Source: Candidatus Shapirobacteria bacterium
GTDB lineage: Bacteria; Patescibacteriota; Microgenomatia; UBA12405
NCBI GenBank assembly: GCA_003542615.1
Contig: DPKG01000014.1
Coordinates: 8,521-72,520, forward strand
DNA: 64,000 nucleotides
Reading direction: 5' to 3'
Position numbers and translations under genes: made by a program. Positions 26,305 to 41,791 of this stretch are shown here, in pieces (positions within the stretch are counted from its first letter, which is position 1; the number at the start of each line of letters is the position of its first letter). The notes below the pieces were generated by a model. That model was given only the letters and a program-made list of their open reading frames with translations, was not told where the DNA came from and searched no databases.

Positions 26305-26403
26305 ATTATTTTAAAAATTATTTTAGAGGTAAATTTATAAATTAGTTAATGAAGTTATATTGTTTATAGCTTTTTAAAATTTGGATGTCAATGACAGGTT
26401 ACC

Positions 26404-26916: not shown

Positions 26917-27125
26917 CTTTGGGAGCCTTTGGAATAAATTAAGGCTAACATTTCAAGCATTTGTTTTTGTAATTTGGCAAATTTGTGTTGATAATTATTA
27001 ATTATATCCTGTTTGTTTAGAATATCTTTCTCCAGATGTCGAAGAAGTTTTCGGATTCGTTTGGCTTTTAAAACAGCTTCTTGGAGTTTTTGGGAGGAGG
27101 AATTTTCAAATTCTTCTCTATTCAT
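26913..27125 (-). CDS. hypothetical small helical protein (70 aa)
   Basis: Coiled-coil-like; overlaps both neighbours. Confidence 0.35.
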   Translation of the reverse strand: MNREEFENSSSQKLQEAVLKAKRIRKLLRHLEKDILNKQDIINNYQHKFAKLQKQMLEMLALIYSKGSQR

Positions 27126-29046
27126 CTTTGGCTAATTGAATAATGACTGATAGACCGGTACTGGTATTGACAGTACCACTGATAGCTCCCTGTTGATAGT
27201 AAGGAGTACCGGATGATTTCCGGACCCAACCGGCGACCGGTTGGTTGGCGGTAAGACTTCGGGTATCGCTAATTTCCCCAATGGAGTTAGTGGCACCGTT
27301 GATAATGGCAAAGGTAGCGGTAATACTAGTACCGGTAGCCGGTGATAAATCGAGAGTTTCAGTGGCAGTATAGGTATATTGATTTTCGTTGGTGACAGTA
27401 ACTTCAAAGGCGCCGTTGTAATCGTCGTCATTGGTAACACCTTTAATAATGACGTAATCTCCACTAGTTAGTCCGTGGGCAGTGTGACTGACGGTGGCGG
27501 TGGTACCGGAACCGGTAATAGAGACAGGAGCTTGGTAAAAATAGTTAGCGTTATCGGTAACCCAAACCAGGACGTTGGCAAATTCGATGACCGAAGCAGT
27601 AGCTAAATCCTGAACGGTAATAGTGGTGGCAACGGTACTGGGCGGAGTTTGGATGGTATCAGTAGAATCGGTGAGCTGATAATTGTTGGAGTCGGCACCG
27701 GCCATGTTGTAAACATAAACGCCACGAGCCCCATAAAATTTACCTCCGGCAAAAGTACCGAAAGGAGCGATTTTTACTTCAATTAATGTTTCCGGAGTGC
27801 CGTTAACGAGAGCGGCACCAGTAGAAGAATCGGTGATGGCTTGATTGTCGGTAAAAGTTCCCCTGACGGTATGGAGAGTCAAAATACCAGTGTTGTCACC
27901 ATTGTAATGGTCGGCGGTGATGATAGCAGTACCGGTAGCGGTAGAAACAGCCAGACCTTGGGTGAAAGCAGCGGTGCGGGTGTCATAAGAGAGACGAAGA
28001 GTACCGACTCCGGTATACTGTTCGCCGTTTAAACCATTTAGAGAAGTGGTAGAGGTGCGACGGGTGACGTATTTGGTGTATTCGTAAAAATTTTTGATGG
28101 TATTGCCGCCACAGTTTATAACTACATCGTAAGGTTGCAGGCCATTGCCATTACTTAGATCTTTGGTGTCGGCGCCAAAGGTAAAAGTGATACCAGAAAG
28201 AGCGGCAATGGTACTGATGTCGGTGGTGTTATTTAAGTCGGTACTGGTAGCCAGAGGGATAGGAGAGCGACCACCGGTGGTCATGATAGTTTGATAATGA
28301 TCGTATAATTTACCGTATTCTCGGGCAAAGATAGTGATTACACCGCTATCATTAAGGGTGCCCTGAATGACAATTCTTTGTAAAATGTCAATGTGACCTG
28401 AAGGCCACCAGGCGGTGATTTTGGTACCAGCTTGGATAATATAAATTTCGGTACCTGAGGCAAGAGTACCGATGGTATAGATATTAGCCCAGGTGGTACC
28501 CCCGGTGGCGGCGGCTAATATTTGGGTATCGATGTGAAAATTACAGGTGACATCGCCGGAAGTAGAATCCCAATTGTCGGTAGCGGCATTGCTGGCAGGA
28601 CGAATGACAAGATACTCACCACTGACAAAGAGAAGGGTACCGGAATCACCATCGGCGTGAGTAATAGTGTTGCCAATATCTCCGGAGACGATATTGGTGC
28701 CGGAACGTTTGATGACAACTATACCGGTACGAACAGTGGCAACGCGGGGATAATCTTTGCTAATTAATCCCCCACCATACAAATGTTGAGTAGTAGTTCC
28801 GTCTATATACCAAGGGTCCTGCTGGTCGTCCAAATCGATAAGGCCAATTTGATATTCCGTGGGGGTAATGGCATTAATAGGAATACCGTCATCCATTTGG
28901 GTGGGTTCATCAAACAGGTCTTGAAGAGCAATGTAAAGTTCTCTGACAGAATAAGTACCGGTAGTACCAGACCAGACAATTCTTTTTTGACGGGTTTCTG
29001 ATAGATAGTAAACGGTAAAATCTCCCGATAGAACAGTGCTTGACAT
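27118..29046 (-). CDS. phage virion-like fibre/receptor-binding-like protein, paralog 2 (642 aa)
   Basis: Same motif blocks as the 24535 gene ('LATSTDLNNTTD', 'IKNFYEYTKY') plus similar N-termini. No signal peptide; G/T/S-rich. Confidence 0.5.
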   Translation of the reverse strand: MSSTVLSGDFTVYYLSETRQKRIVWSGTTGTYSVRELYIALQDLFDEPTQMDDGIPINAITPTEYQIGLIDLDDQQDPWYIDGTTTQHLYGGGLISKDYPRVATVRTGIVVIKRSGTNIVSGDIGNTITHADGDSGTLLFVSGEYLVIRPASNAATDNWDSTSGDVTCNFHIDTQILAAATGGTTWANIYTIGTLASGTEIYIIQAGTKITAWWPSGHIDILQRIVIQGTLNDSGVITIFAREYGKLYDHYQTIMTTGGRSPIPLATSTDLNNTTDISTIAALSGITFTFGADTKDLSNGNGLQPYDVVINCGGNTIKNFYEYTKYVTRRTSTTSLNGLNGEQYTGVGTLRLSYDTRTAAFTQGLAVSTATGTAIITADHYNGDNTGILTLHTVRGTFTDNQAITDSSTGAALVNGTPETLIEVKIAPFGTFAGGKFYGARGVYVYNMAGADSNNYQLTDSTDTIQTPPSTVATTITVQDLATASVIEFANVLVWVTDNANYFYQAPVSITGSGTTATVSHTAHGLTSGDYVIIKGVTNDDDYNGAFEVTVTNENQYTYTATETLDLSPATGTSITATFAIINGATNSIGEISDTRSLTANQPVAGWVRKSSGTPYYQQGAISGTVNTSTGLSVIIQLAKDE

Positions 29047-29073
29047 TTTCTTATTTTACAATTTTTGAATTGA

Positions 29074-30678
29074 CTATGTAGAGGCAGTGATATCTTCGAT
29101 TAGAGTAATGGTGGCTGAATAGCCAGTACCAGTAATAGTACCCGATGAGCTGACGGGAATATATTTGGTGTCCCCAGTTGAAGATTTTCTAACACGAACG
29201 TAAATGGCGGCGGGAGTGGTGCCGCCATAACCAAAAGAAACTTCACCATTAATATCCGTATCGGTATTTAATAACACGGAATCATCACTGGAAAGACAGA
29301 CAGCGACTTGGGCTGTTTGTATGGGATCGTTGGTGACATCAACAACGGTGACAGAAACGGGGACAGAAGAAACAACACTGGTGGTGGAACCAGCACTGTT
29401 TTGGACGGATATGGTACCGGTAATACCGGAAGCATTGAGAGTAACCGCTCCGCCGGAATTATTATAAATTACTTCATTTCCGGTAGTACCATCGGTAGTG
29501 GCATAGCCGGTAAAAGTATGACCAGAAAGACTATAAGAATTACCGGCACAAGAGGTATCAAGTTCGATGGCATGACTGGTACCATCGGAGACAAAAGTGC
29601 AGGCGGTAATAACTGAGGGATTAGTAGCTAAAATTGATGAGGCAGCAGTGGTATTGGTAAAAGTACAGTCGGTGAAAGTTCCACCACCCTGGGTAACTAG
29701 AGCACATCTTCTAAAAGTGGCGGAAATGACGGTGCTATTTGATTGAAAGATAAAAGTGTTCATGTCGGTAAAGGAGCTGTTGTTGATATTGACATCGGCA
29801 TTAGCAACAACTTCAAAATCACCTTTAGATAATTGGGTGGACAAAAGGGCGGTAAAGTTGACGTTGTCCCAGGTGACGACCGAACTGGTATTTTTTATTT
29901 CAATCTTATTAAAGGTGGCAAAGGTAGCGGGGGTGTCGTCTATGGTAATGTTGATATTTGAGTCGACAAAGTAACAGGCTGCTGTCTCCCCAAAACTCAT
30001 GAGACCTTTCCAGAGATAACCGGTACCTTCTTTTTGAAATAGACCCCATCTGGCTGTTTGCGCATCGTTGACGGCAGCCATGGCAGCAAAATTGCCGTAA
30101 CCACCGCCGATGTTATCTCCGTTGTCGAAAAGTATCTGGCCACGGCCATAATACATAGCATCAAAACCATGCATGGTTCCCTTGGAAATATTAGAAATAA
30201 CATCAGCGGCGGCACCAAAAAAACGATAGGTACCACCATGGCCGGTACCGACAGTATAATCGGCAGTTTTGGCAGGATTAACAGCATAACATTGCCAGCC
30301 ACCATAGGGATTGCGACCTTTATCACTACCACCAACTCTCCATGCGGAGAAGTTTAAAACATCGGCACCAACGATGGCTCTTAAACCTCCGGAAGCGTAG
30401 TTGCTCATAGCGTTAGCTGGTAAAAGAACGTGCCACATAAAAACGCAGGTGTAGTTAGCAGTAAATGAAGCAGATAAAGAAGAGCCATAATCAAAACAAC
30501 CGGAACAGAGTCCGGTTTTATTATTGGTGTCGGATGAACGACAACCTGAACCTTCAATGTAATAATCACCTTCTCCCAGTGGAGCATCTCCAACAGCCCA
30601 AGCCGTCATTTCCACCCAGGTGCCGCTTTCAGCATTAGTGAGAGGGGTTAGATCAGAATTATATGTGGGTACGGCCAT
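29074..30678 (-). CDS. right-handed beta-helix (pectate-lyase-fold) tailspike-like protein with C-terminal beta-sandwich domain (534 aa)
   Basis: Repeats of the type 'TFRRCALVTQGGGTFTDCTFTNTTAASSILATNPSVITACTFVSDGTSHAIEL'. C-terminal 'VTVVDV...GEVSF' carboxypeptidase-regulatory-like region. No signal peptide. Confidence 0.5.
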   Translation of the reverse strand: MAVPTYNSDLTPLTNAESGTWVEMTAWAVGDAPLGEGDYYIEGSGCRSSDTNNKTGLCSGCFDYGSSLSASFTANYTCVFMWHVLLPANAMSNYASGGLRAIVGADVLNFSAWRVGGSDKGRNPYGGWQCYAVNPAKTADYTVGTGHGGTYRFFGAAADVISNISKGTMHGFDAMYYGRGQILFDNGDNIGGGYGNFAAMAAVNDAQTARWGLFQKEGTGYLWKGLMSFGETAACYFVDSNINITIDDTPATFATFNKIEIKNTSSVVTWDNVNFTALLSTQLSKGDFEVVANADVNINNSSFTDMNTFIFQSNSTVISATFRRCALVTQGGGTFTDCTFTNTTAASSILATNPSVITACTFVSDGTSHAIELDTSCAGNSYSLSGHTFTGYATTDGTTGNEVIYNNSGGAVTLNASGITGTISVQNSAGSTTSVVSSVPVSVTVVDVTNDPIQTAQVAVCLSSDDSVLLNTDTDINGEVSFGYGGTTPAAIYVRVRKSSTGDTKYIPVSSSGTITGTGYSATITLIEDITAST

Positions 30679-31117
30679 ATTTTTCGATTAAAAAGTTATT
30701 AAACTCATTTTTAACATCTTGGGCATTATCTCCTTTTTTGAGATAAATTTTGTTAATTCCATTAGTATTGATAATCACTGAATAACCTTGATTCCCAAAA
30801 TTTTTAATCTGTTGTTTGGCAATTTCGGTCATCTCGAAACGGTGGTCTTGGGTGCCAAAAAAAATATTATCATTAACTTTTTCAAATATCATTTTACAGT
30901 GATCTGGCCTTAATTTGATAGAGACTTTTTCCATTTGATGATAGGCACAACGAAATCCGGCACAGGCTTTTGGGCGATCTTTGTAGATTAGACAGCCTTT
31001 TTTAAGAACACAATGTTTACAAAGTTGATTGGCTGGTTTATTAAGACTGCGTACAGGTAATAGATAGCAACACAGGGTACATTGGCCACAGCGATTTTGG
31101 TTTTCAATATTTGCCAT
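30659..31117 (-). CDS. YkgJ/UPF0153-like Cys-rich (putative Zn/Fe-chelating) protein; first gene of the operon
   Basis: 'CGQCTLCC' (CxxCxxCC) plus further Cys pairs 'CKHC', 'CAGFRC'. Confidence 0.45.
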   Translation of the reverse strand: MANIENQNRCGQCTLCCYLLPVRSLNKPANQLCKHCVLKKGCLIYKDRPKACAGFRCAYHQMEKVSIKLRPDHCKMIFEKVNDNIFFGTQDHRFEMTEIAKQQIKNFGNQGYSVIINTNGINKIYLKKGDNAQDVKNEFNNFLIEKYGRTHI

Positions 31118-31241
31118 AAGCTATTATACATTTGAGCTAAACTTTTTTTAATCTATGCTTAACTTAATTAAAAGTTTTGATCATGATAGTTATAAAAGGG
31201 AGAAATTATTTTTAGTTTCGGTGGAGGAAACAGCAGGTCGT

Positions 31242-31709
31242 TTAATCGACTGATGGTTCATCAGTTTTTGGCTGGGAATTGAGGATGTAATTTTTCTTGT
31301 CGGAAAAAGGGTGAATTATACCCGTTATCAAGTAGTAGATTAGAGGAATAAGGAGAAGGGTACTGGCAAAAGCGATAGAAATAGTCCACTGGACGGTGGT
31401 GATTTTCATGCCGGTGGCTAGTTGTTGGATGGCATAAAGATTGCTGAGGATAAAAATAACAAAGAGGGAAATGGCTTTTTGAAAATTAAAGCCACTAATA
31501 AAGGATAATACGAGCCAAACTAGGAGAAAAAGTCCGATGGTTCTGGAAAAAATACCAAAGGTAGTCAGAGGATATTGAGACATCAGAGGAGAATTCAAAA
31601 ATTGGTAAGGATTTTTGACGGTGAGGGCAATTGGTCCGGATATTGAGTCGATGGCGTGGGCTAAGACGATAAGGGCAAAGGTAAAGATAAAGAGATATTC
31701 TTTTTTCAC
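31242..31709 (-). CDS. hypothetical polytopic membrane protein (155 aa)
   Basis: 4 predicted TM; 4-nt overlap with the upstream gene. Confidence 0.4.
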   Translation of the reverse strand: MKKEYLFIFTFALIVLAHAIDSISGPIALTVKNPYQFLNSPLMSQYPLTTFGIFSRTIGLFLLVWLVLSFISGFNFQKAISLFVIFILSNLYAIQQLATGMKITTVQWTISIAFASTLLLIPLIYYLITGIIHPFSDKKNYILNSQPKTDEPSVD

Positions 31710-32692
31710 CTTTTTTGTAAAAAACGATTATAAATAAATAGACTTAAAGCTATACTAGAGAAATAAGTGAATATAAGTAGGATAACATTTCGCAACACGA
31801 AAGGGGAAATAAATATCAAGGCGTCATCAATCGGAGTTGTAATGGCCAATATCCATTTGGTAGAAGAATTAAGTTTGACAGGTGATGAAGCGATTAAAGT
31901 TCTGGTAAGCTTACCTGTAGAGAAATCGGGGATGACAATATCAAGCTTGGATTCTTGATTAGAGGTCAGTTTTTGACGTATTAGTGGCATAACAATTTTG
32001 TCACCAAGAAAAGGATGTTCGTCGACGATATGAAAAATGTTTTGGTTTACTACTTCTTGTGTAGTACCATTGAAGACATCTCCGTTGGAATTAAATAGAT
32101 AAATACCGGTACGTGGGGAGATTTTTAGAGGTTCAAGATATTTTTCAGTCAAGGAAGGGATAGAAATAGAAACCGTGAGAACCCCAATGAATTTATTGTT
32201 GGAATAAAGGGGAGTGGCGACGGGAATTTTAAAAGTTTGGCCGGCACCAGGTACCCGGGAGACAAATGGCTTGCCAAAAGAAATTGTACCAGGAGGTGAA
32301 CCTGAAGCTGCGATAAAATAATCACGATCTGAGACATTGCCTCCAAGAGAAAGTTTTTCGGCATTACTGGCGGTTAATTTTATTTGACCTTGGATATCGG
32401 TGAGAATGATACCGACAACGGGAGTGTCGGACCAATTATCGACAAAGTCTTGGAGAATTTTAGGAGTGATAATATTATTGCTGGAAAGAATAAGTAAGGA
32501 CCTGGAGGTTAAGTCAATAAAACTACTGATAGAAGATGCTCCAGAACGAACAATAACCTGTTCGCGATGGAGCATTTGCTCAACCAAAGATTTGATACTA
32601 CTGGCTCCGGTAATCTGATATAAGGTAAACGAAAGAGCAAAAAAAATAACAAAAGAAATTGTTGAAATCAGATAAAAAAATTTTTTAGTCAT
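31706..32692 (-). CDS. membrane protein with large extracytoplasmic sensor-like (Cache-like?) domain and no output domain
   Basis: N-terminal TM, ~250 aa periplasmic domain, C-terminal TM, ends immediately. Domain assignment tentative. Confidence 0.35.
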   Translation of the reverse strand: MTKKFFYLISTISFVIFFALSFTLYQITGASSIKSLVEQMLHREQVIVRSGASSISSFIDLTSRSLLILSSNNIITPKILQDFVDNWSDTPVVGIILTDIQGQIKLTASNAEKLSLGGNVSDRDYFIAASGSPPGTISFGKPFVSRVPGAGQTFKIPVATPLYSNNKFIGVLTVSISIPSLTEKYLEPLKISPRTGIYLFNSNGDVFNGTTQEVVNQNIFHIVDEHPFLGDKIVMPLIRQKLTSNQESKLDIVIPDFSTGKLTRTLIASSPVKLNSSTKWILAITTPIDDALIFISPFVLRNVILLIFTYFSSIALSLFIYNRFLQKR

Positions 32693-32744
32693 AATTGCTT
32701 ATGATATAACACGGTATTGCTTTTTGTAATGTCAAAAGATGATA

Positions 32745-33605
32745 TCAAAAAATTGTATCAAACGATTCGTAAGTTTGATTTTCTTTGTCGTTCCAGGCGG
32801 TGGTGAAATCAGACACACCATTACAATAAAGGAAGTCTCCTTCTCCTACCCCACTGGTAGTTTCCCGTTGGATGTACCACTGGCCACTTTGGTCGACAAA
32901 ACCATAATAAGAATAGGTGTCGCTGCTGGTGTCATCCATCTTGCTAATCTTGTAACCATCGGTGGGCTGTTTGGCGGCGGGGTCGATTTTGTTGCCACCG
33001 GTATCTTTAATTGAAATGGTGCCGGGGCCGGGGACAGAACCGAAAAAGGAAGCAGAGGCTTTTTTGGGATTGACCAAAGTGAGGGCGGCAAGACCAAGAC
33101 CGGCAGAACCGGCCATTTTGAGAAATTGGCGGCGGCTTTGGTCGGAGATCTGAACCTGAGTTAAATCTTTTTCGGGTGGCGGAGGGGTGGGTTTGGGGGG
33201 AAGGCGAAAATTAAGATGAGAAATTAAATTTTTGATTTGATTGACCAATTCGAGTCCAAAAAAGAAAACTAAGGGAGTAAAAGTAAGACCAAGAATAAGT
33301 TGAAGAGTAGATTGAGCCACCAAAAGATTCATTAGCCAGATAACGGCGACCAAAAGATAACAAAATAAATTTAATATGGAAAAAATAAATCGGGAGATTT
33401 TGCCGGAAATAAATTTTTTGAAAATCAGATAGATTAATACCAAAGTAAAGGCGATCAGAGCAAGGGGATTATTTTTCCAAACGCCAAAAACAAAACCGAG
33501 AACAAGATTTAAAAAGACAAAAAGGAGAGAGTACCAAAAAAGAATGTGATTAAGAGTTATTTTGATTTTCATGGAAATTCCTTTAGAAATTGGGACTGGA
33601 CCCAA
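32745..33605 (-). CDS. membrane protein with internal twin-arginine signal-like segment
   Basis: ~130-aa N-terminal 4-TM domain, 'PPKPTPPPP' linker, then 'SRRQFLKMAGSAGLGLAALTLVNPKKASA' (consensus Tat motif, h-region, AxA) followed by a ~110-aa Gly/Thr-rich domain. Confidence 0.45.
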   Translation of the reverse strand: MGPVPISKGISMKIKITLNHILFWYSLLFVFLNLVLGFVFGVWKNNPLALIAFTLVLIYLIFKKFISGKISRFIFSILNLFCYLLVAVIWLMNLLVAQSTLQLILGLTFTPLVFFFGLELVNQIKNLISHLNFRLPPKPTPPPPEKDLTQVQISDQSRRQFLKMAGSAGLGLAALTLVNPKKASASFFGSVPGPGTISIKDTGGNKIDPAAKQPTDGYKISKMDDTSSDTYSYYGFVDQSGQWYIQRETTSGVGEGDFLYCNGVSDFTTAWNDKENQTYESFDTIF

Positions 33606-34057
33606 CCAAGTTGGTTGCCGTCCAGATCAAGTTGATACCAACCGTCCTGTTTTAGGCGATAAAAATAAATAGTATCGTAAAAAATATTATTGATGATTTT
33701 ACTTGAAGCCAGAGGTTTTTCGTAGACATCAATTTTTTGCCATTGAGGTGAATTAATTTTAACCATGCCACCAAGAAGAGAGGAACTAAGGGTCGGAGTG
33801 GGAGAACCGTTGGAATTGGCGGAAGTATTTGGGTTATTTAGACTGGAAGCCATGTCTTTTCGAAGGTTAATCAGTTCCCGAAGAATAATTTCAGTTTGGG
33901 AATTAGCATTTAGAGGAGTGGGGGTAATAAGTTCTGACGGAGGAGGTGTTATGTTGGTGGAAGGAGGAAGTGGTTGATTGTGGTCGATGAGAAACTTGTC
34001 GGTAAGAATGGTGGTTAAAACCACAAGGGCGATGGTTTGGAGTTTGGAAAGTTCCAT
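33569..34057 (-). CDS. secreted/anchored protein with Pro/Thr linker and C-terminal SH3b-like domain
   Basis: N-terminal hydrophobic segment, 'PPSTNITPPPSELITPTP', and a C-terminal ~60 aa domain similar to the C-terminal repeats of the 930-aa protein. Confidence 0.4.
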   Translation of the reverse strand: MELSKLQTIALVVLTTILTDKFLIDHNQPLPPSTNITPPPSELITPTPLNANSQTEIILRELINLRKDMASSLNNPNTSANSNGSPTPTLSSSLLGGMVKINSPQWQKIDVYEKPLASSKIINNIFYDTIYFYRLKQDGWYQLDLDGNQLGWVQSQFLKEFP

Positions 34058-34098
34058 AGTTAAATTTTACGGTTTTATATTGGCTTGTCAAAAGTAAG

Positions 34099-35313
34099 TT
34101 GTCGAATATAATTCTAGATGTGGAATTTTGGAAATTTGGAAAGAAAAAAATACAAATAACCGAAGGGGGAGTAATTTTGGAGAAAATAAGAAAATTGGCT
34201 TTTGGGCCGGGATCTGAGCTGAGCGGAACATTTTTCCCAAAAAAGGAAACATGGGAGGCGGTACAGGTGTTAAAAAAAATGGGTAAGTGGAGAGGTGGAA
34301 GTGAAAATGATTGGATAAAACAGCAAAAAATTATAGAGGAGAACCTGTCGACTTTGGCTGAGGCGGGGTTTAAAAGTTTGAGGTTGGTATTGATGCCTGA
34401 TGAACTGATTGGGGAAGGAGGGGTTTATAACTGGAAACCGGTAGAAAAAATTCTGGATTTGATGGTCAAATATAGAATCAGGGCGGATTGGTGTACCGGA
34501 CCGATTGATTATCCCTACAATCCAGGAATAAGATTGCCAAAAGAAGTGAAAAATATATTAAGTCAGGAAATAAAAGAGACAGGAAGAAATCAAATTAAGA
34601 TTTCGATGGGAATAGACCGATGGATGCCGAAATCAAGTGAGGCCATCAGAGAATTCGGATTAAATTTTTTTGAGGCGTTTTTGAAAAGGTACGGAAAGGA
34701 CAAACGGATTGGGAAATTTTACATCGGTAATGAATGGCCGGATCTGCACGGAATTGAGGGGACGAAGGTGATGGCAAATATTTCAAAAGATTTTATGGAG
34801 GAGTTAATTAAAAGAGGACAAAAATTGACGGACAAAAAAATTGCCTTGAATACCAATATTCATCCCAGCAACTTGAGACGTTTAAGAAAAACTTTCAATC
34901 CCCTGTTTGAAATTCTAAGAGATCAGGGAGTATTGGGGATTGATACTTATCCGACAAGAGAAGGGAAAATAAGAGAAATGATTTATAAAAGAAGTGTAAA
35001 GAGAGTAAAAAGAGAGTTTTGGAAACAAGAGATAGAATTAACGGAGTATCAGGCAGAATTGTATGATGATGATATTTCGGGAAAGTCGTGGGCTGAGATA
35101 ATGGAAAAATATAAAAAAAGAGTGGTGGAATTTTATCAGGAGGTGTTTTTTAAAAAGTTGGAGACTTATGCGGTGGCGGGACAAATTAAAAGAGTGGGAA
35201 TGTGGGGAATACCGCTTTTATTGACAGCAAAAAGAATGGGGTATGATTTTCCCTTGGAGATGATGAAAACAATAAGCGAGACAATGGCAAAAAGAGGCGG
35301 AAAGGATAAGTAA
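34099..35313 (+). CDS. hypothetical protein, possibly TIM-barrel glycoside hydrolase (clan GH-A-like)
   Basis: 'YIGNEWPD' resembles the conserved NE(P) acid/base motif of clan GH-A. Otherwise unassigned. Confidence 0.3.
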   Translation: MSNIILDVEFWKFGKKKIQITEGGVILEKIRKLAFGPGSELSGTFFPKKETWEAVQVLKKMGKWRGGSENDWIKQQKIIEENLSTLAEAGFKSLRLVLMPDELIGEGGVYNWKPVEKILDLMVKYRIRADWCTGPIDYPYNPGIRLPKEVKNILSQEIKETGRNQIKISMGIDRWMPKSSEAIREFGLNFFEAFLKRYGKDKRIGKFYIGNEWPDLHGIEGTKVMANISKDFMEELIKRGQKLTDKKIALNTNIHPSNLRRLRKTFNPLFEILRDQGVLGIDTYPTREGKIREMIYKRSVKRVKREFWKQEIELTEYQAELYDDDISGKSWAEIMEKYKKRVVEFYQEVFFKKLETYAVAGQIKRVGMWGIPLLLTAKRMGYDFPLEMMKTISETMAKRGGKDK

Positions 35314-35322
35314 AATTATTTT

Positions 35323-36306
35323 TTATATGTCTATGTGGGAACGGAAAAATTCCAGATCGCGGTTTAAGGCTTGGCTCCAGTGGCGGGAAAGATTGTGGTC
35401 GTCGTTTTGATAAGTATAAAAAATGACGAATTTGTTTTGGTCTTTGAGTTTTTGAACTAAATCCTGACCCCAGGAATAAGGAACGGATTCGTCAGTTGGA
35501 CTATGGTGGATAATCAGGGGAATATTAATCTTATCTAAATGATCAATGGCGGCAAAATCAGAGGCGGGATATTGGCTTAATAGTTGATTTAGAGAGGATT
35601 GAAAATCGGGTTGATCGGTGGGAACGGGTAGGCGGCGATTTCGAAAATAAGTGACATTTTTGGGAAAATCTGTAACGGCAGGTGCCCAAAGAGAAATAGC
35701 CTTAATTTGGGGTGAATTTTGAGTTACTAAAAGACTGACTTCAGCTCCCATGGAGTGGCCATACATAAAAATGTTTCTGATATCGGATTGCGGTAGAGTG
35801 CCGAGGCCGGCGATAAGATTGAGGACATCAATGGCATAGTTTGAACGGGAGAGAAATCTGTCGGCTTCTCCCTGGGAATTGGCATGGCCACGAAAATCAG
35901 GTTTGAGAACTAGAAATCCGGAGGAAGCATAATAGGCGGAGGTGTTGACATAAGATCGACTGGTGGAAAATTGTGATGGGGGAATATAGCCGTGGTTGAC
36001 AATGATAATAGGAAAACCTGAGGGAGGGGGATTGTCGGTAGGAAGATTCATGAGAGCATAAAGCTTTAAATTTTGAGAATAATAGGAAACCAGATAGGAG
36101 GTATATCGTGAATGACGGGAAAGAATTTTTTCGGTAGTGATGATGGTATTTGGGTCAATAAAGGAAGAAAGGTTGGAAACAGCGAGAGGGTGGAGAGCGG
36201 GGGTGGGAGTGGGGAGGGCTAATTGTTGGAGAGAAGGTGAAAATTTTTTAAAAATGAAAAAAAGAATAAGGGCGGTGATTAAAATTAAAGGAAACAGTTT
36301 TTTCAT
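35323..36306 (-). CDS. secreted alpha/beta hydrolase (S9/dienelactone-hydrolase-like esterase or peptidase)
   Basis: Signal peptide; nucleophile elbow 'GHSMGA'; downstream Asp and 'DDHN' His candidates. Confidence 0.55.
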   Translation of the reverse strand: MKKLFPLILITALILFFIFKKFSPSLQQLALPTPTPALHPLAVSNLSSFIDPNTIITTEKILSRHSRYTSYLVSYYSQNLKLYALMNLPTDNPPPSGFPIIIVNHGYIPPSQFSTSRSYVNTSAYYASSGFLVLKPDFRGHANSQGEADRFLSRSNYAIDVLNLIAGLGTLPQSDIRNIFMYGHSMGAEVSLLVTQNSPQIKAISLWAPAVTDFPKNVTYFRNRRLPVPTDQPDFQSSLNQLLSQYPASDFAAIDHLDKINIPLIIHHSPTDESVPYSWGQDLVQKLKDQNKFVIFYTYQNDDHNLSRHWSQALNRDLEFFRSHIDI

Positions 36307-36371
36307 AACGAATATTATATTTTAGTATATTATTGTGTTGTTTTTGGTAATAATGCTAGAATAAGTTAATT

Positions 36372-36833
36372 ATGAAAAAAGAAAAAACTCAAATCCCCTC
36401 TTCCTTGGATGAATTAGAAGGTTTGTTAAATGAATATTTTGGTATAAAGGCACCACAATTGCCGGAAAATGTAAAAGAGATTTTGGTGAAATTCGGACCT
36501 TATATTACTTTGGCTATTTTGTTTTTTAGTCTTCCTTTTATTTTGGGAGTGTTGGGATTGGGAGCGGTGATGTCACCATTTGCAATGATGGGTGGAGCAA
36601 GATTAGGGGCAGGATATATGCTTGGAATTTTGGTAGCGGTGGTGAGTTTGGTGTTGGAAATTGTGGCTTTACCGGGATTATTTAAAAGAGAGATAAAAAG
36701 CTGGAGAATGTTGTTTTGGGTATCGTTGGTGACAGCGGTCGGGGCGATATTCAGATTTGATTTGGGAGCTTTGGTGGTGGGTTCGATAGTGTCTTGGTAC
36801 TTTTTGTTTCAAATCAGATCTTACTATAAATAG
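36372..36833 (+). CDS. hypothetical membrane protein (153 aa)
   Basis: 3-4 TM helices. Confidence 0.4.
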   Translation: MKKEKTQIPSSLDELEGLLNEYFGIKAPQLPENVKEILVKFGPYITLAILFFSLPFILGVLGLGAVMSPFAMMGGARLGAGYMLGILVAVVSLVLEIVALPGLFKREIKSWRMLFWVSLVTAVGAIFRFDLGALVVGSIVSWYFLFQIRSYYK

Positions 36834-36847
36834 AGTTATAATGGTGG

Positions 36848-37651
36848 ATGTCAGAAAAAGTCAGGTATTTTGAGGGATATTTGAGTCCGGTGGAGGAAGA
36901 ATTGGCGTTTGTGGAGAGATGCCGAGTTAATGGGGTCAAGCAAATTATTTTGGACTGGGACGATACAATTGGGAAGACAGTAGGAATTTTTAAAAAGCAG
37001 ATGGATAGATGTTATGATTTTTTGGCTGAAAGAGCGCCAATTTTGAGTAGAGAAGAATGGAGGGAGAGAATAGTATTTCATAATAATAATTCTTTTGAAA
37101 CCCATGGAGTAAATCCAATAAGGTGGTCAGTAGTAATGGATTTAGTGCAGAGAGAAACAGGATTGGATAAAAAAAATACCAGGGGTGCAGTAAAAATTTT
37201 GGGGCATATTTATAAAACCAGACAGGAATTTTTACCGGGAGCAGAGGAGGGGTTGCAGTTTTTGGTGAAAACAGGAATGCCAATCGGTATTGGTACACAC
37301 GCGAATTGGGATTGGACAAGATTTAAATATAATTGTTTAAAGATGCACAGATATGTACCTTGGGATGATGTTTATATATTTGATGAAAATGGGCATAAAA
37401 CTCCGAAAGAATGGGATAAAGGAATTAGGAAATATTTTAAGGTAAGACCAGAAAGATGTATGCTGGTTGGAGACAGTCCAAGGTCAGATATTAATCCGGC
37501 TATCGAAATCGGGGTCAGGGCGGAGAACTGTGTGTGGATTACCGGAAACGGAACGGAATTGTGGTCGATACATCAACAGGCGGTACCAGCGGAAGTGAGA
37601 AGGATGTCAAATATAAACGGACTGCGAAATTTGGGAAGAGAAGTAATTTAG
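36848..37651 (+). CDS. HAD-superfamily hydrolase
   Basis: Motif I 'ILDWDDTIG' (DxDxT) and motif IV 'VGDSPRSDI'. Confidence 0.55.
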   Translation: MSEKVRYFEGYLSPVEEELAFVERCRVNGVKQIILDWDDTIGKTVGIFKKQMDRCYDFLAERAPILSREEWRERIVFHNNNSFETHGVNPIRWSVVMDLVQRETGLDKKNTRGAVKILGHIYKTRQEFLPGAEEGLQFLVKTGMPIGIGTHANWDWTRFKYNCLKMHRYVPWDDVYIFDENGHKTPKEWDKGIRKYFKVRPERCMLVGDSPRSDINPAIEIGVRAENCVWITGNGTELWSIHQQAVPAEVRRMSNINGLRNLGREVI

Positions 37652-37654
37652 CAT

Positions 37655-37691
37655 AAAAATAGCCCCGATATAAAACCGGAGCTATTTTTTT
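37655..37691. terminator. putative bidirectional terminator between convergent genes
   Basis: AAAAATAGC-(17 nt)-GCTATTTTTTT: a 9-bp A/T-rich stem flanked by A and T runs. Confidence 0.35.
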
Positions 37692-37703
37692 AGAAGCTAA
37701 AGT

Positions 37704-38072
37704 TTAGTTGGAAGAACGGTAACCCATTCCCCGACCCTGACCTTTGCCCTGACCCTGACCCATGCCATACTTAGTTTTGAATTCATTAAGTTTGGTATAG
37801 TCCCCTTTTTCGGCGTCCAAATGAGCGGCGGCGAATTCGGAGAAGTTGTCGGCATTAACAAAACGAGTAGCACCACGACCATCCATGAGATCTGCCCATG
37901 ATTGATAGTTTTTATTTTGAAAAGCTTGCAACATTGAATCATGGCGTTCTTCAGTGTAGTTGGGACCCTTGACAGCCGGGTCGCCCTGATAGGCAAGAAC
38001 AGGAGTAAATGATTTAACAGCAACTAAGCCTAGAGTAAGGGCGGCTAACCCTAAAACGATATTGGTTTTCAT
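37704..38072 (-). CDS. small secreted protein (122 aa)
   Basis: Signal peptide 'GLAALTLGLVAVKS'; Gly-rich C-tail 'GQGQGKGQGRGMGY'. Confidence 0.4.
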   Translation of the reverse strand: MKTNIVLGLAALTLGLVAVKSFTPVLAYQGDPAVKGPNYTEERHDSMLQAFQNKNYQSWADLMDGRGATRFVNADNFSEFAAAHLDAEKGDYTKLNEFKTKYGMGQGQGKGQGRGMGYRSSN

Positions 38073-38155
38073 ATTTTTTTTAATTATTAATTTGTAGATA
38101 GTTTCCGGATGAGCTATCTAGTATTAATACAGCGGCAAGATACCATTTCTTTCAT

Positions 38156-38806
38156 TTATCTAAAACCCCAGGGTCGGATTTCATTTACTTTGAAACTATC
38201 GGAGGATAATTGCTGACCAATCAATTTAATTTCAAGACCGACAGTGAGGGAAGCCCAACCACGAATAAGAGGTTGGTCGTGGGTGATAGTCCAGGTTTTG
38301 CCGTTAAAATCGAGGAGAGTAAATTGATTTGCGGTGTCGAGGCTGATAATTTTGCCGGAAAGATAGCCTGATGAGGGATCTGACCAAACCTGCTGTTTGA
38401 GAGGGGCCAGAGAGCGATATATTTTGAAACGATGAGCCAGATAATTATCGGTGAGAGGAGCGGCATTGAGCTGGTGAAAAATCAGACCAATAGTTGCACC
38501 AAAAAATAAAATTGAAATAATTAGAATTTTGGGGTCAAGGCGGTAAGATTTTTTGGTATGACGAAGAAAGTAAGTGGTAACTAATACAAAGAAAAAGGCA
38601 GTAATAGACCAAAAGTAAGGGGTAAATTCGGGATTCTGAATCATATAAACTGAAAGTGAGAGACCGAGGGCGAAAACCAGAAGTGAAAGGAGGGCAAGGG
38701 TCCAAAAAAAGATATTCCGACTCAAAAAGTGCCAACGGGGAGTTGGTTTGAGGTGTTGTTGCTGAATGGTTTTTAGCGCTTTTTGGCTAATACTGGTTTT
38801 GGTCAT
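38156..38806 (-). CDS. putative anti-sigma factor (membrane protein encoded downstream of the ECF sigma)
   Basis: Overlaps the sigma gene 3' end; 2-3 TM then an extracytoplasmic C-domain. Assignment by context only. Confidence 0.35.
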   Translation of the reverse strand: MTKTSISQKALKTIQQQHLKPTPRWHFLSRNIFFWTLALLSLLVFALGLSLSVYMIQNPEFTPYFWSITAFFFVLVTTYFLRHTKKSYRLDPKILIISILFFGATIGLIFHQLNAAPLTDNYLAHRFKIYRSLAPLKQQVWSDPSSGYLSGKIISLDTANQFTLLDFNGKTWTITHDQPLIRGWASLTVGLEIKLIGQQLSSDSFKVNEIRPWGFR

Positions 38807-39365
38807 AGATTGTTTTAAATTGTTTTTTGGCCCGATTAATAAGGGTAGCGACGGTACCCATGGGCTTTTGTAAAATGTGACTAATTTCTTTATAATCTTT
38901 GTCCTGTAAGAATTTTAAGACAAGAACCTGTTGATATTCCGGTTTAAGTTGAGCTAAGATCAACCGGATGTAGTCCTGAAATTGGGAATCCTGAGTTTGT
39001 TTTTCGATGTCGGTGTCACTAACTAACCAATTGGTAATTTCACTATAATCATCATCGATGTTTAAGGTCTGGGTCTTTTTTGATTTTTTGAGGAAGTTGA
39101 CGGATTGATTGTGGACGATACGATATATCCAGGAAGAAAATTTAAAGTCAAAATCAAAATCATTTAGGTTTTGATAAGCCTTGACAAAAGAATTTTGAAT
39201 AATATCGTCGATATCTGATTGAGATAAAAAAGTCAGATGGTGGACATAGGCGGCCAGTTGTTTTTCGTAACGTGACATAAGGCAATAATAATAATTACTG
39301 TCGTCAAGAGAAAGACGGACCAATTGATGATCGTCTAGAGATTGACAAAGTTTTGGATCAAACAT
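38787..39365 (-). CDS. RNA polymerase ECF-type sigma-70 factor
   Basis: Region 2 'IIQNSFVKAYQNLNDF' and region 4 HTH 'YKEISHILQKPMGTVATLINRAKKQF'. Confidence 0.7.
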   Translation of the reverse strand: MFDPKLCQSLDDHQLVRLSLDDSNYYYCLMSRYEKQLAAYVHHLTFLSQSDIDDIIQNSFVKAYQNLNDFDFDFKFSSWIYRIVHNQSVNFLKKSKKTQTLNIDDDYSEITNWLVSDTDIEKQTQDSQFQDYIRLILAQLKPEYQQVLVLKFLQDKDYKEISHILQKPMGTVATLINRAKKQFKTIYDQNQY

Positions 39366-39430
39366 AGAGAGATATCTTTAATTATTACAAAAATTTCGGC
39401 AATTTTCTTTCAGTTTGATAGAATAGCGGC

Positions 39431-39949
39431 ATGAAATTGTTGATTCACGCTTGTTGTGCGGATTGTGTGTTGAAATTTTTGGAATCAAAAAGTGAGAAAA
39501 AATGGGAGGAGATGGCGGTGTATTATTACAATCCAAACATTCAGCCCCGATCGGAATATTTGAGCAGACTAAAGGCAATACAAAAAGTTTTGGAAAATAA
39601 AGAGGTGAAATTGATTATTCCGGATTGGAGTCCAAGAGAATATTTTGAGGTGGTTAAAACAGAAAAAGGGAGATGTGTAAAGTGTTGGAATTTGAGGTTG
39701 GGAAAAACGGCAGAATATGCAAAAAAGAACGGGTTTGAATATTTTTCGTCGACTTTGGTGACTTCACAATATCAAAATAGAAAAATGATAGAGGTGATTG
39801 CCGATAAGTTGGCAGCAGAAAAGGAAGTGAAGTTTTTTGTACCAAAAAAAGTATGTTGTGATCTTAAAACGGCAGGTTTTTATAAACAATTTTATTGCGG
39901 GTGTGTGTATTCGCTGAGGGAGCGGTTTGAGGAAAAATATAAAAAATAA
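39431..39949 (+). CDS. queH: epoxyqueuosine reductase QueH (DUF208)
   Basis: N-terminal 'LLIHACCADC', mid 'CVKCWNLRL', C-terminal 'CGCVYS' Cys ligands; 172 aa. Confidence 0.6.
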   Translation: MKLLIHACCADCVLKFLESKSEKKWEEMAVYYYNPNIQPRSEYLSRLKAIQKVLENKEVKLIIPDWSPREYFEVVKTEKGRCVKCWNLRLGKTAEYAKKNGFEYFSSTLVTSQYQNRKMIEVIADKLAAEKEVKFFVPKKVCCDLKTAGFYKQFYCGCVYSLRERFEEKYKK

Positions 39950-39951
39950 GT

Positions 39952-40893: not shown

Positions 40894-40985
40894 AGATAAG
40901 TATGATTATATAGGAAAATTATATCTAGAAAAACATGTAAGAATTTTAAGCTGATTACTACACAAATAGTAGATGGAGGTATATA

Positions 40986-41174
40986 GTGATAGGTCATATG
41001 AATAAAAACCAAATATTTTTGGTGATTGGCGGAGTATTTTTAATATCTTTGATATGGTCAAGAGAAATAGTTTTAAATTACACCGGTGATTTGAGTAAAA
41101 TTTTAGGGTTGGGGGCTTTGGTAATAGGATATTTTTTGAAGCGAGTGACCGATCGGGTTTTTATAAATAAATGA
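40986..41174 (+). CDS. small membrane protein (62 aa)
   Basis: Two TM helices; uncertain. Confidence 0.3.
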   Translation: MIGHMNKNQIFLVIGGVFLISLIWSREIVLNYTGDLSKILGLGALVIGYFLKRVTDRVFINK

Positions 41175-41187
41175 GGTAAAATAAATT

Positions 41188-41789: not shown

Positions 41790-41791
41790 AA

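What the first reader, a model, noticed from the sequence alone, without database searches (positions are those of the whole stretch)
32745..33605. Consensus twin-arginine signal (SRRQFLK + h-region + AxA) located in the middle of a membrane protein
After an N-terminal 4-TM domain and a Pro-rich linker, the protein carries 'DQSRRQFLKMAGSAGLGLAALTLVNPKKASA', a textbook Tat signal peptide. It is followed by a ~110-aa Gly/Thr-rich domain. Upstream codons (TTA, GTT, ATC) offer no alternative start, so this is not an overlooked separate gene. An internal Tat-type targeting element is atypical and sits about 9 kb from the amplified tat cluster.
Basis: seen in the sequence. Interest (0 to 1): 0.5.

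Follow-up and report, generated by a model that had tools for sequence, protein, structure and literature searches.

The report
Internal Tat signal, polytopic CPR protein
A membrane protein of a tiny uncultured bacterium (Candidatus Shapirobacteria) has a textbook twin-arginine export signal placed after four membrane helices; about two thousand relatives share this design, it best fits the known Sec-plus-Tat co-operative insertion route, and the family is new, shows no cofactor site and is encoded next to the tat genes.

Summary
The gene (window 32745..33572, minus strand, 275 aa from an ATG that overlaps the upstream stop codon) encodes four TM helices, a Pro-rich cytoplasmic linker, S-R-R-Q-F-L-K, a 17-residue weakly hydrophobic stretch, KK-ASA, an invariant FFGSVPGPGT motif and a ~90-aa beta-rich domain. 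It is not a frameshift or a missed gene. The identical protein is on record for 31 contigs. About 1,950 clusters of relatives, all Microgenomates-type CPR bacteria where named, keep the layout: 2 or 4 TM helices, then [RK]R-x-F-L-K, always internal.

The family meets the sequence rules set experimentally for dual Sec-Tat membrane proteins (Keller 2012; Tooke 2017):
- an even number of N-in helices;
- the RR motif on the cytoplasmic side;
- a last segment of low hydrophobicity;
- basic residues after it;
- a loop of at least 20 aa.

A TatC plus five TatA genes lie 9 kb away in one co-directional array. A tat gene lies within the fetched flanks in 24 of 80 species. In two metagenome contigs the family gene sits 129 nt upstream of tatC.

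It differs from the described families in two ways: no cofactor site is detectable, and a signal-peptidase-type AxA site is conserved.

Verdict: a new family of a known kind. Tat dependence and cleavage are untested.

The parts
32745..33572 (-). Whole gene, 275 aa plus stop: four TM helices, linker, internal Tat-type signal, C-terminal domain. Identical to P0262 (hypothetical protein, Candidatus Shapirobacteria).
33228..33551 (-). N-terminal four-helix membrane domain, roughly aa 8-115 (TM1 about 8-30, TM2 35-54, TM3 59-84, TM4 90-115). Predicted N-in. It looks like a tandem duplication of the two-helix hairpin that short family members have.
   Evidence: AlphaFold2 pLDDT about 97; hydropathy; positive-inside counts; consensus
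33144..33227 (-). Cytoplasmic Pro-rich linker, aa 116-143, with no start codon in it. By the hydropathy window the distance from the last TM to the RR motif is 36 aa.
33117..33137 (-). Twin-arginine motif S146-R-R-Q-F-L-K152 (n-region). RR codons lie at 33129-33134.
33066..33116 (-). h-region M153-P169 (MAGSAGLGLAALTLVNP): 17 uncharged residues, much less hydrophobic than TM1-4.
33051..33065 (-). c-region K170-K-A-S-A174: two basic residues (a Sec-avoidance type feature) and an AxA signal-peptidase-type site.
33018..33050 (-). S175-FFGSVPGPGT185, which holds the invariant core (F-F-G-S-x-P-G-P-G) of the family. The model gives it very low confidence (pLDDT below 50 for 178-185).
32748..33017 (-). 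C-terminal passenger domain, aa 186-275. It has a four-stranded beta sheet plus two short helices (aa 208-275, pLDDT above 90). No Cys or His is conserved. It has no Pfam match and no convincing fold match.
33569..34057 (-). Upstream partner gene: membrane-anchored protein with a C-terminal bacterial SH3 domain. Its stop overlaps the start of the target gene (ATGA). Syntenic in relatives.
31242..31709 (-). mem155, a 155-aa multi-pass membrane protein of unknown family. It is the most constant neighbour: found in 63 of 80 species loci, usually directly downstream of the target.
22165..22896 (-). tatC (Pfam TatC, 132 bits). The F94/E103-equivalent segment FIKPALRPHEF aligns with E. coli FIAPALYKHER.
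21811..23420 (-). tat cluster: five TatA_B_E genes (21811-21969, 22012-22146, 22899-23054, 23071-23205, 23202-23420) around tatC.

Best explanation
The protein belongs to a large, previously undescribed, Microgenomates-specific family of polytopic membrane proteins assembled by two translocases in turn.

Proposed steps:
1. (Inferred.) SRP, Sec and YidC insert the two or four N-terminal helices co-translationally with the N-terminus inside. The linker and the RR motif therefore stay in the cytoplasm.
2. (Inferred, by analogy with the experiments of Tooke et al. 2017.) The next hydrophobic stretch is too weakly hydrophobic and is followed by two basic residues, so Sec does not insert it and lets it go.
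3. (Inferred.) The ~100-aa C-terminal part is finished, and its ~70-aa beta domain folds, in the cytoplasm. TatC recognises the tethered S-R-R-x-F-L-K motif, and the TatA/TatC machinery encoded in the same gene array moves the C-terminal domain across the membrane.
4. (Open.) The 17-residue h-region, the fixed 28-29-residue spacing and the conserved AxA look like a cleavable signal peptide. Signal peptidase I may therefore cut after A174 and release an 11-kDa domain that begins SFFGSVPGPGT, leaving a five-helix stub. I rate this at about even odds. Otherwise the stretch stays as a fifth TM anchor.

Shown by sequence: the architecture, its conservation, the predicted topology, the hydrophobicity contrast, the charges, the presence of a Tat system and the genomic linkage. 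The role of the exported domain is unknown. It probably acts at the cell envelope together with the SH3-domain protein and mem155.
For: 1. Motif. An exact S-R-R-x-F-L-K is present, with TIGR01409 above its cut-off. Among 304 unique relatives, RR occurs in 79% and KR in 21%, and x-F-L-K in 82%. The spacing from RR to FFG is 28-29 residues in 97%.
2. Always internal. All of the best 150 of 1,949 representative clusters carry the C-domain at their C-terminus. Where an [RK]R motif was found, and the sequence was not a short fragment, it was preceded by TM helices.
3. Even helix number. Counts converge on 2 (130 sequences) or 4 (127) as the threshold is relaxed, and the RR position is bimodal.
4. 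Topology. K+R counts put the N-terminus and the RR loop inside in 260 of 260 sequences.
5. Hydrophobicity. On a simplified Hessa scale the window TMs score -1.5, 0.4, -2.3 and 1.6, against +5.3 for the h-region. Family medians are -0.15 and +2.17. The h-region is less hydrophobic than the median of its protein's upstream TMs in 92%.
6. Basic residues after the h-region. There are 1-3 in every one of 221 members. The positions at -6 and -5 from FFG are mostly K or R.
7. Loop length. The loop from the last TM to RR is at least 20 aa. Tat needs about 8 (PMC5449189).
8. Machinery. TatC and five TatA genes lie in the same co-directional array, with gaps of -20 to 201 nt over 16.7 kb.
9. Linkage. 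TatC lies within the fetched flanks in 19 of 80 species loci and TatA in 24 of 80. A tat gene lies less than 1 kb away in 7 of these. In L171 and L172 the family gene ends 129 nt before the tatC match; in L171 the ORFs read family gene-tatC-tatA-tatA. For one tatC in a genome of about 1 Mb I would expect roughly 2% by chance (my estimate).
10. Precedent. The mechanism was shown experimentally for the actinobacterial Rieske protein, Sco3746 and a polyferredoxin (PMC3471235; PMC5449189).
Against: - There is no experiment, and no TatP, SignalP or TMHMM run was possible.
- TIGR01409 reaches E <= 0.01 in only 15 of 120 members. Pfam TAT_signal is below its gathering score even for the window protein.
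- One fifth of members have KR instead of RR. KR is tolerated in some natural substrates (own knowledge), but it weakens the signal.
- In 56 of 80 loci no tat gene was seen in the flanks. Whether those genomes have tat at all could not be checked.
- The hydrophobicity figures come from a simplified, position-independent scale, not from the dGpred server.
- Distant subfamilies lose the AxA, for example GQLPFFGK, so cleavage cannot be universal.
Confidence: 0.66

Rival explanations
1. The stretch after the RR motif is an ordinary fifth transmembrane helix or signal-anchor inserted by Sec/YidC. The D-x-D-R-R-x-F-L-K motif is conserved for another reason, such as positive-inside topology or binding of a cytoplasmic or membrane partner like mem155, and only resembles the Tat consensus.
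For: - Most members do not reach E <= 0.01 with the TIGR01409 model.
- KR replaces RR in 21%.
- The passenger is small and has no detectable cofactor site, so it has no obvious need for folded export.
Against: - A Sec-inserted N-in/C-out helix should not keep one to three basic residues directly on its trans side in every member.
- The segment has only about 17 uncharged residues and is markedly less hydrophobic than the upstream helices.
- The conserved residues are exactly those of the Tat consensus: the second R, F, L and K.
- Repeated placement next to, or inside, tat operons is unexplained under this view.
Confidence: 0.2
2. The internal position is an artefact. A frameshift, a missed stop codon or an assembly error has joined a small membrane-protein gene to a separate gene for a secreted protein with a normal N-terminal Tat signal.
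For: - One 736-nt metagenome contig (L088) has an in-frame stop between the membrane part and the RR part.
- One contig at 1.9x coverage (L090) has an unrelated, ABC-ATPase-like N-terminus in front of the RR motif.
Against: - The identical uninterrupted protein is on record for 31 contigs under four NCBI accessions.
- Every complete ORF parsed in 65 species genomes is fused.
- Three of five apparent short forms were mis-called starts or contig-end truncations of fused ORFs.
- There is no start codon between TM4 and the RR motif.
- The N-terminal domain is conserved and modelled at pLDDT about 97.
Confidence: 0.02
3. The protein is a membrane-tethered Tat escort. Its small C-terminal domain binds, in the cytoplasm, one or more of the large signal-less crAss-like phage tail proteins encoded between it and the tat genes. 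It then carries them through the TatA-rich translocase to the cell surface by hitchhiking.
For: - The gene, the phage-tail-like module and the tat genes form one tightly packed co-directional array; the gap from p169 to the first tatA is 44 nt.
- The same order recurs in many Microgenomates lineages.
- By inspection of their N-termini, the module proteins (534, 642, 589 and 169 aa) show no signal peptide.
- No other canonical Tat motif occurs in the window, or among the 43 non-family hits in 1.4 Mb of related loci.
- There are five tatA copies. Hitchhiker export of signal-less partners is known for Tat, for example the hydrogenase large/small subunits and DmsAB (own knowledge).
Against: - It rests on context only. 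No interaction evidence exists and no multimer modelling was available.
- Most family loci (about 59 of 80) show no phage-like module in the flanks, and L171 has only the family gene plus tat genes. The family therefore does not need the module.
- The module proteins may simply be cytoplasmic or remnants of a prophage.
Confidence: 0.1

Closest known systems
Sco3746 (heme/MoCo protein, Streptomyces coelicolor) and polyferredoxin Q1NSB0 (delta proteobacterium MLMS-1): five-TMD dual Sec-Tat proteins (Tooke et al. 2017, PMC5449189)
   Same: - Four Sec-type helices with the N-terminus inside.
- A cytoplasmic loop of at least 8 aa.
[quoted passage not shown]
- An extracytoplasmic C-terminal domain.
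   Different: - Their passengers are large cofactor domains (MoCo; four 4Fe-4S clusters), and their membrane parts carry heme or Fe-S ligands. Here the passenger is about 100 aa with no conserved Cys or His, and the membrane part has no conserved His.
- Here an AxA site is conserved and the h-region is only about 17 residues, like a cleavable signal.
- There is no sequence homology: no Pfam or NCBIfam family match.
Actinobacterial Rieske protein QcrA / Sco2149, three TMDs (Keller et al. 2012, PMC3471235)
   Same: - Two Sec-inserted helices followed by an internal Tat signal, the layout of the short (~210 aa) members of this family.
- A faint NCBIfam hit of the window protein to bc1_QcrA_actin (E 0.029, 13.9 bits against a cut-off of 275). 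It covers the TM and RR region only.
   Different: - There is no Rieske 2Fe-2S domain.
- The linker is not conserved, whereas Rieske has a conserved loop.
- The hit is far below threshold, so this protein is not a member.
YkuE-like polytopic metallophosphoesterases (4 TMDs, N-out; proposed bioinformatically in PMC5449189)
   Same: A family in which a protein otherwise exported with an N-terminal Tat signal is found with extra Sec-type helices in front.
   Different: - YkuE-like proteins are N-out with three helices before the RR motif, and they bind metal.
- Stand-alone YkuE with an N-terminal signal exists. For the present family I found no convincing stand-alone form.
Classical cleavable N-terminal Tat signal peptides (for example SufI, TorA; B. 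subtilis PhoD, whose gene sits next to tatAd-tatCd)
   Same: - The n-, h- and c-region geometry.
- The S-R-R-x-F-L-K motif, basic c-region and AxA.
- As with phoD-tatAd-tatCd (own knowledge), some family genes lie directly in front of tatC.
   Different: The signal is not N-terminal. It is tethered to 2 or 4 membrane helices in every complete member examined.

Membership tests
Dual Sec-Tat-targeted polytopic membrane proteins (Keller 2012; Tooke 2017) | Even number of TMDs with N-in topology before the twin-arginine motif, so that the motif is cytoplasmic | tested here: met
   - TM counts converge on 2 (130) or 4 (127) of 278 sequences as the threshold is relaxed, and the RR position is bimodal.
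- The AlphaFold2 model shows four helices.
- K+R counts favour the inside in 260 of 260 sequences.
- These are crude in-house predictors, not TMHMM or TOPCONS.
Dual Sec-Tat-targeted polytopic membrane proteins (Keller 2012; Tooke 2017) | Consensus twin-arginine motif directly before the final hydrophobic segment, conserved among homologues | tested here: met
   - The window protein has SRRQFLK.
- Among 304 members, RR 79%, KR 21% and xFLK 82%.
- TIGR01409 scores 23 bits against a cut-off of 16.7 for the window protein, but only 15 of 120 members reach E <= 0.01.
Dual Sec-Tat-targeted polytopic membrane proteins (Keller 2012; Tooke 2017) | Final (Tat-dependent) segment of relatively low hydrophobicity (positive predicted dG of insertion) | tested here: met
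   - Simplified Hessa-2005 sum: +5.3 for the window h-region, against -2.3 to +1.6 for TM1-4.
- Family medians are +2.17 against -0.15.
- The position-dependent dGpred calculation was not available.
Dual Sec-Tat-targeted polytopic membrane proteins (Keller 2012; Tooke 2017) | [quoted passage not shown] | tested here: met
   - The window protein has KK at 170-171.
- There are 1-3 K/R in all 221 members scored.
- The position at -6 from FFG is K or R in 256 of 304, and at -5 in 225 of 304.
Dual Sec-Tat-targeted polytopic membrane proteins (Keller 2012; Tooke 2017) | Loop of at least about 8 residues between the preceding TMD and the RR motif | tested here: met
   Minimum 20, median 48, and 36 in the window protein. 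The requirement is quoted from PMC5449189.
Dual Sec-Tat-targeted polytopic membrane proteins (Keller 2012; Tooke 2017) | Globular cofactor-containing extracytoplasmic C-terminal domain (the stated reason for Tat dependence) | tested here: not met
   - There is no conserved Cys or His among the invariant or nearly invariant columns.
- There is no Pfam or NCBIfam domain.
- A cofactor held by Asp, Glu or Tyr cannot be excluded.
Dual Sec-Tat-targeted polytopic membrane proteins (Keller 2012; Tooke 2017) | Export of the C-terminal domain depends on tat genes and on the twin arginines, while the earlier TMDs insert without Tat | not testable with these tools
   This needs reporter fusions in tat+ and tat-deletion strains. 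Only the presence of TatC and five TatA genes and the genomic linkage could be shown.
Classical Tat signal peptide (TIGR01409 / PF10518) | Located at the N-terminus of the precursor | tested here: not met
   The motif starts at residue 146 of 275, after four TM helices, and there is no alternative start codon.
Classical Tat signal peptide (TIGR01409 / PF10518) | Profile score above the curated cut-off | tested here: inconclusive
   TIGR01409 scores 23.0 against 16.7 and passes. PF10518 scores 19.2 against 22.7 and fails.
Classical Tat signal peptide (TIGR01409 / PF10518) | Cleavage by signal peptidase I at AxA after the c-region | not testable with these tools
   The window protein has ASA|S. 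Strict AxA is kept in 75% of 304 members and an SPase-compatible site in 91%. It is lost in distant subfamilies. Protein-level data are needed.

The most novel reading that the evidence does not exclude
The tethered Tat signal is not there for the 100-aa domain itself. The protein is a membrane-anchored escort that supplies, in trans, the only twin-arginine signal of a conserved gene array. Through that array an expanded Tat machinery (five TatA plus TatC) would export folded, signal-less, domesticated crAss-like phage tail-fibre proteins to the surface of these ultrasmall bacteria, possibly as adhesins. Signal-peptidase cleavage at the conserved AxA would then release the complex. This would be a new use of the Tat pathway and of phage tail genes.
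Probability: 0.1. Interest if true: 0.85.

Novelty: new member of a known kind. Interest (0 to 1): 0.55.

Why it matters
Only four families of membrane proteins with an internal Tat signal have been described. Three were tested and one was only predicted. All were found by searching for cofactor domains.

This family would add several things:
- It extends the principle to a passenger with no detectable cofactor site.
- It extends it to the Candidate Phyla Radiation.
- It is very large: about 1,950 clusters at 50% identity.
- In some genomes its gene is part of the tat operon itself, which suggests it is a main client of the Tat system in Microgenomates.
- With its conserved AxA site it offers a natural test of whether a signal peptide tethered to a polytopic anchor can be cleaved after Tat transport.

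For genome annotation, these proteins are now labelled 'hypothetical'. They could instead be named as Sec/Tat dual-targeted membrane proteins.

Tried and rejected
- Frameshift or two-gene artefact: rejected.
- Stand-alone relatives with an N-terminal Tat signal: five candidates from the representative search were checked. Two were mis-called starts and one was a contig-end truncation. One had an in-frame stop in a 736-nt contig, and one was a chimera-like low-coverage contig. None is convincing.
- The afdb50 fold library was not available.
- PHROGs, Pfam and NCBIfam on the protein gave nothing beyond the Tat signal hit.
- Family in viral contigs: absent.
- TatC-anchored scan of metagenome contigs: only three loci, so no statistics, but two had the family gene abutting tatC.
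- The large neighbours p534 and p642 against PDB sequences, and p589 and p169 against GenBank phages: no match.
- Literature on Tat substrates in CPR bacteria: only general statements that tatA and tatC occur in Microgenomatia. No later survey of dual Sec-Tat proteins turned up in the held library.
- Lipobox, prepilin-peptidase and sortase-type motifs around FFGSVPGPG were considered by eye and do not fit.
Full report
**The observation**

The ORF reported at 32745..33605 on the minus strand exists. Its most likely start is the ATG at 33572. That ATG overlaps the TGA of the upstream gene (ATGA) and gives a 275-aa protein. Read directly, the protein has:
- four long hydrophobic helices;
- the linker LPPKPTPPPPEKD;
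- S146-R-R-Q-F-L-K152;
- the uncharged stretch MAGSAGLGLAALTLVNP;
- K-K-A-S-A174;
- SFFGSVPGPGT and about 90 further residues.

NCBIfam TIGR01409 (Tat signal) matches residues 146-169 at 23.0 bits, above its cut-off of 16.7. Pfam TAT_signal gives 19.2 bits, just under its cut-off of 22.7. No ATG, GTG or TTG codon lies between codons 109 and 153, so nothing could start a separate protein in front of the RR motif. In a six-frame scan of the whole window this is the only RR motif followed by a hydrophobic stretch that sits in a long ORF. Only the start coordinate and the 'Gly/Thr-rich' label need adjusting.

**Not an artefact**

The identical 275-aa sequence (P0262) is on record for 31 contigs under four NCBI accessions, named Candidatus Shapirobacteria.

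A word-indexed search found 394 relatives. A profile of the C-terminal domain, searched against 1.84 billion representatives, found 1,949 clusters at E <= 0.001 and 613 at E <= 1e-10. In all 150 listed hits the domain is at the C-terminus. Almost every listed sequence that is not a short fragment has D-x-D-[RK]-R-x-F-L-K, about 17 uncharged residues, K/R-K/R, A-x-A and (A)FFGSVPGPG, preceded by hydrophobic helices.

A scan of one genome per species returned 80 loci. The named ones are Shapiro-, Davies-, Woese-, Roizman-, Levy-, Ames-, Beckwith-, Gottesman-, Collier- and Woykebacteria. Every complete ORF I could parse (65) has TM helices before the motif.

Five apparent stand-alone short forms were checked at the DNA level:
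- two are mis-called starts inside fused ORFs (L006 127..939, 270 aa; L007 5815..6453, 212 aa);
- one is cut by the contig end;
- one 736-nt contig has an in-frame stop;
- one contig at 1.9x coverage has an unrelated N-terminus.

**Anatomy of the family**

Two length classes exist. The RR motif lies at about residue 80-100 in one and 140-160 in the other. As the hydrophobicity threshold is relaxed, helix counts converge on 2 (130 sequences) and 4 (127), with odd counts falling to 7%. The alignment consensus shows the motif pair (L-F-Y-Y ... P-x-x-x-Y-F) once in short forms and twice in long forms, so the four-helix domain looks like a duplicated hairpin.

AlphaFold2, run with 120 sequences, gave a mean pLDDT of 87:
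- a four-helix bundle at about 97;
- one long helix over residues 144-176;
- a low-confidence stretch over 178-205;
- a small domain over 208-275 with four strands and two short helices, above 90.

Columns invariant across 120 sequences include R148, F150, F176-F177-G178-S179, P181-G-P-G184, K189, P198, T204, Y207, G224, W232, W260 and Y268. No Cys or His is conserved.

**Test against the rules for dual Sec-Tat proteins**

Keller et al. 2012 (PMC3471235) and Tooke et al. 2017 (PMC5449189) showed that some polytopic proteins have their first helices inserted by Sec and their last helix, plus a folded domain, handled by Tat. The rules they derived are:
- an even number of N-in helices;
- a consensus RR motif directly before the last segment;
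- low hydrophobicity of that segment;
- basic residues behind it;
- a loop of at least about 8 residues.

Results here:
- K+R counts place the N-terminus and the RR-bearing loop in the cytoplasm in 260 of 260 sequences. Mean K+R per segment for four-helix forms is 2.1, 0.7, 3.6, 0.7 and 3.4.
- On a simplified Hessa-2005 scale the window helices score -1.5, 0.4, -2.3 and 1.6, and the h-region scores +5.3. Family medians are -0.15 against +2.17. The h-region is less hydrophobic than every upstream helix in 74% of members, and less than their median in 92%.
- Every one of 221 members has one to three basic residues in the c-region, and the shortest loop is 20 residues.
- Among 304 unique members, RR occurs in 79% and KR in 21%, and x-F-L-K in 82%. 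The RR-to-FFG distance is 28 or 29 residues in 97%.

All five sequence rules are met. The remaining trait of the described families, a cofactor domain, is not met.

**The translocase and genomic linkage**

The window carries tatC (Pfam 132 bits) and five TatA_B_E genes, each above its gathering score. The TatC segment FIKPALRPHEF aligns with E. coli FIAPALYKHER, which contains F94 and E103 of the RR-binding site. The residue roles are from my own knowledge; the alignment is.

From the SH3 gene at 34057 down to the YibE/F gene at 17371, all genes run on the minus strand with gaps of -20 to 201 nt.

In the 80 species loci (median 17.8 kb fetched):
- TatC lies in the flanks in 19 and TatA in 24;
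- a tat gene lies less than 1 kb from the family gene in seven.

For one tatC in a genome of about 1 Mb I would expect roughly 2% by chance (my estimate).

A reverse search starting from TatC returned only three metagenome loci. In two of them the family gene ends 129 nt before the tatC match. In L171 the ORFs read family gene (2-TM form, 227 aa)-tatC-tatA-tatA. This resembles phoD-tatAd-tatCd of Bacillus subtilis (own knowledge).

**Constant neighbours**

A 155-aa multi-pass membrane protein (window 31242..31709) is found in 63 of 80 loci, usually directly downstream. A membrane-anchored SH3 protein is found in 29 of 80 loci, directly upstream and often overlapping the start. In this window a dCache gene is inserted between the target and mem155.

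**Best explanation and its limits**

The protein most likely works like the dual Sec-Tat proteins. Sec/YidC inserts the first four helices. The weakly hydrophobic, KK-flanked segment is released by Sec. The completed C-terminal domain is then exported by TatAC through the tethered RR signal. I put this at about 0.66.

What is shown is sequence architecture, conservation, predicted topology and gene linkage. Every transport step is inferred by analogy.

Weak points:
- TIGR01409 reaches E <= 0.01 in only 15 of 120 members.
- One fifth of members have KR.
- No cofactor rationale is visible.
- Most loci show no tat gene in the limited flanks.

Whether the signal is cleaved is open. For cleavage: a short h-region, the fixed spacing, and AxA that is strict in 75% and SPase-compatible in 91% of members. 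Against universality: distant subfamilies have non-cleavable sequences such as GQLPFFGK.

The main rival is an ordinary Sec-inserted fifth helix whose motif only resembles Tat (about 0.2). It does not explain the conserved trans-side lysines or the tat linkage.

**The passenger domain**

The family's invariant F-F-G-S-x-P-G-P-G core sits in a stretch the model leaves without regular structure. Many conserved aromatic and acidic residues follow it. With two SH3-domain proteins as neighbours, I suggest (inference only) a role in binding at the cell envelope.

**Comparison and novelty**

[quoted passage not shown] There is no sequence homology to any of them. The faint QcrA hit (E 0.029, 13.9 bits against a cut-off of 275) covers only the TM and RR region.

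I found no description of this family, or of Tat substrates in CPR bacteria, in the held literature.

I rate it a new member of a known kind, with three variant traits: a passenger with no detectable cofactor site, a possible cleavage site, and a gene placed at or in the tat operon. Interest is 0.55.

**Seen on the way**

The 8 kb between mem155 and the tat genes (23429..31117) is a phage-derived module. p169 has 162 relatives in IMG/VR contigs, up to 71% identical over residues 1-122. In the 80 loci kept, p589 is found in 64, p642 in 67 and p534 in 59; p589 reaches 63% identity over 594 aa. tat, SH3, mem155 and the RR family are absent from those loci. One such contig carries crAss-type tail ring and auxiliary capsid Pfam domains and a 1,258-aa tail fibre.

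The module recurs at the same place in several Microgenomates lineages, and p169 abuts the tat genes. This prompts the speculative escort (hitchhiker) reading given as the novel case, at about 0.1.

Noticed in passing
window 23429..31117 (-): Eight co-directional genes (p169, p74, p97, p589, p170, p642, p534, cys152) form a phage-derived module. p169, p589, p642 and p534 have close relatives (up to 71% and 63% identity) in 59-80 of 80 IMG/VR contigs, one of which is crAss-like (CrAss_Ring_2, Ring_3_4 and AuxCP domains, plus a tail fibre). No capsid, portal or terminase gene was recognised in the window module. The module recurs between the RR-protein gene and the tat genes in many Microgenomates genomes, so it looks domesticated rather than a recent prophage.
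   Followed up: partly
window 21811..23420 (-): The tat locus has five TatA_B_E paralogues, of two size classes (about 44 aa and 51-72 aa as listed), arranged three before and two after tatC. The same 3+1+2 order is present in relative L001, which is 62% identical in the target protein.
   Followed up: partly
window 17371..34057 (-): A 16.7-kb array of 21 genes lies on one strand with gaps of -20 to 201 nt and several start/stop overlaps. It runs from the SH3 gene through the RR protein, the phage-like module and the tat genes to a 930-aa SH3 protein, a 123-aa membrane protein and YibE/F. This suggests one or a few long operons.
   Followed up: partly
window 18493..21657 (-): p930 has a Sec-type signal, a large ectodomain, TM segment(s), Pro/Thr-rich linkers and two C-terminal SH3 domains. 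The adjacent 123-aa membrane protein has EE...K and H-x-x-x-N motifs, and its L004 homologue has a faint PrsW-protease hit. The two co-occur with the tat cluster in 12 of 80 loci. The small protein might be a membrane protease acting on Tat clients; this was not tested.
   Followed up: no
window 31706..32692 (-): A 328-aa dCache_1 protein (TM, Cache domain, TM, with no cytoplasmic output domain) is inserted between the RR-protein gene and its usual neighbour mem155. Its stop overlaps the mem155 start. It is absent at this position in L001, L003 and L004.
   Followed up: no
window 1..64000: GC skew of the plus strand is very strong (0.1 to 0.52 in 2-kb windows) from about 6 kb to 56 kb and changes sign at about 56-62 kb. 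Unusual strand composition disparity has been reported for a Microgenomates genome (title of PMC7143001, not read). The turning point could be a replication landmark.
   Followed up: no
L088 (736 nt) and L090 (1944 nt): These are two exceptions to the fused architecture. L088 has an in-frame stop between the hairpin and the KR motif. L090 has an ABC-ATPase-like N-terminus (MAEVKLENVVKKFG...) directly in front of the RR motif, with no TM helix. Both are short, low-coverage contigs, so error or chimera cannot be told from real variants.
   Followed up: partly
loci L013, L015-L018, L020 and others (genome contigs): Many contigs carrying this family, its mem155 partner and the neighbouring cluster genes are titled 'uncultured Gammaproteobacteria' or 'uncultured Pseudomonadales' in TPA assemblies. 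Every otherwise-named member of the family is a Microgenomates-type CPR bacterium, so these taxonomic labels look wrong.
   Followed up: no
window 30659..31117 (-): A 152-aa Cys-rich protein (CGQCTLCC..., several CxxC pairs) overlaps the start of p534 by 20 nt. It matches phrog_9155 (E 7e-7, unknown function) and occurs in 8 of the 80 viral loci, but in none of the 80 Microgenomates loci.
   Followed up: partly
window 33144..33227 (-) and 18865..21657 (-): The cytoplasmic linker of the RR protein (LPPKPTPPPP) and a segment just after a TM helix of p930 (LTPPKPTPPSL) share the string PPKPTPP. This may be chance among Pro-rich linkers or a shared docking motif.
   Followed up: no
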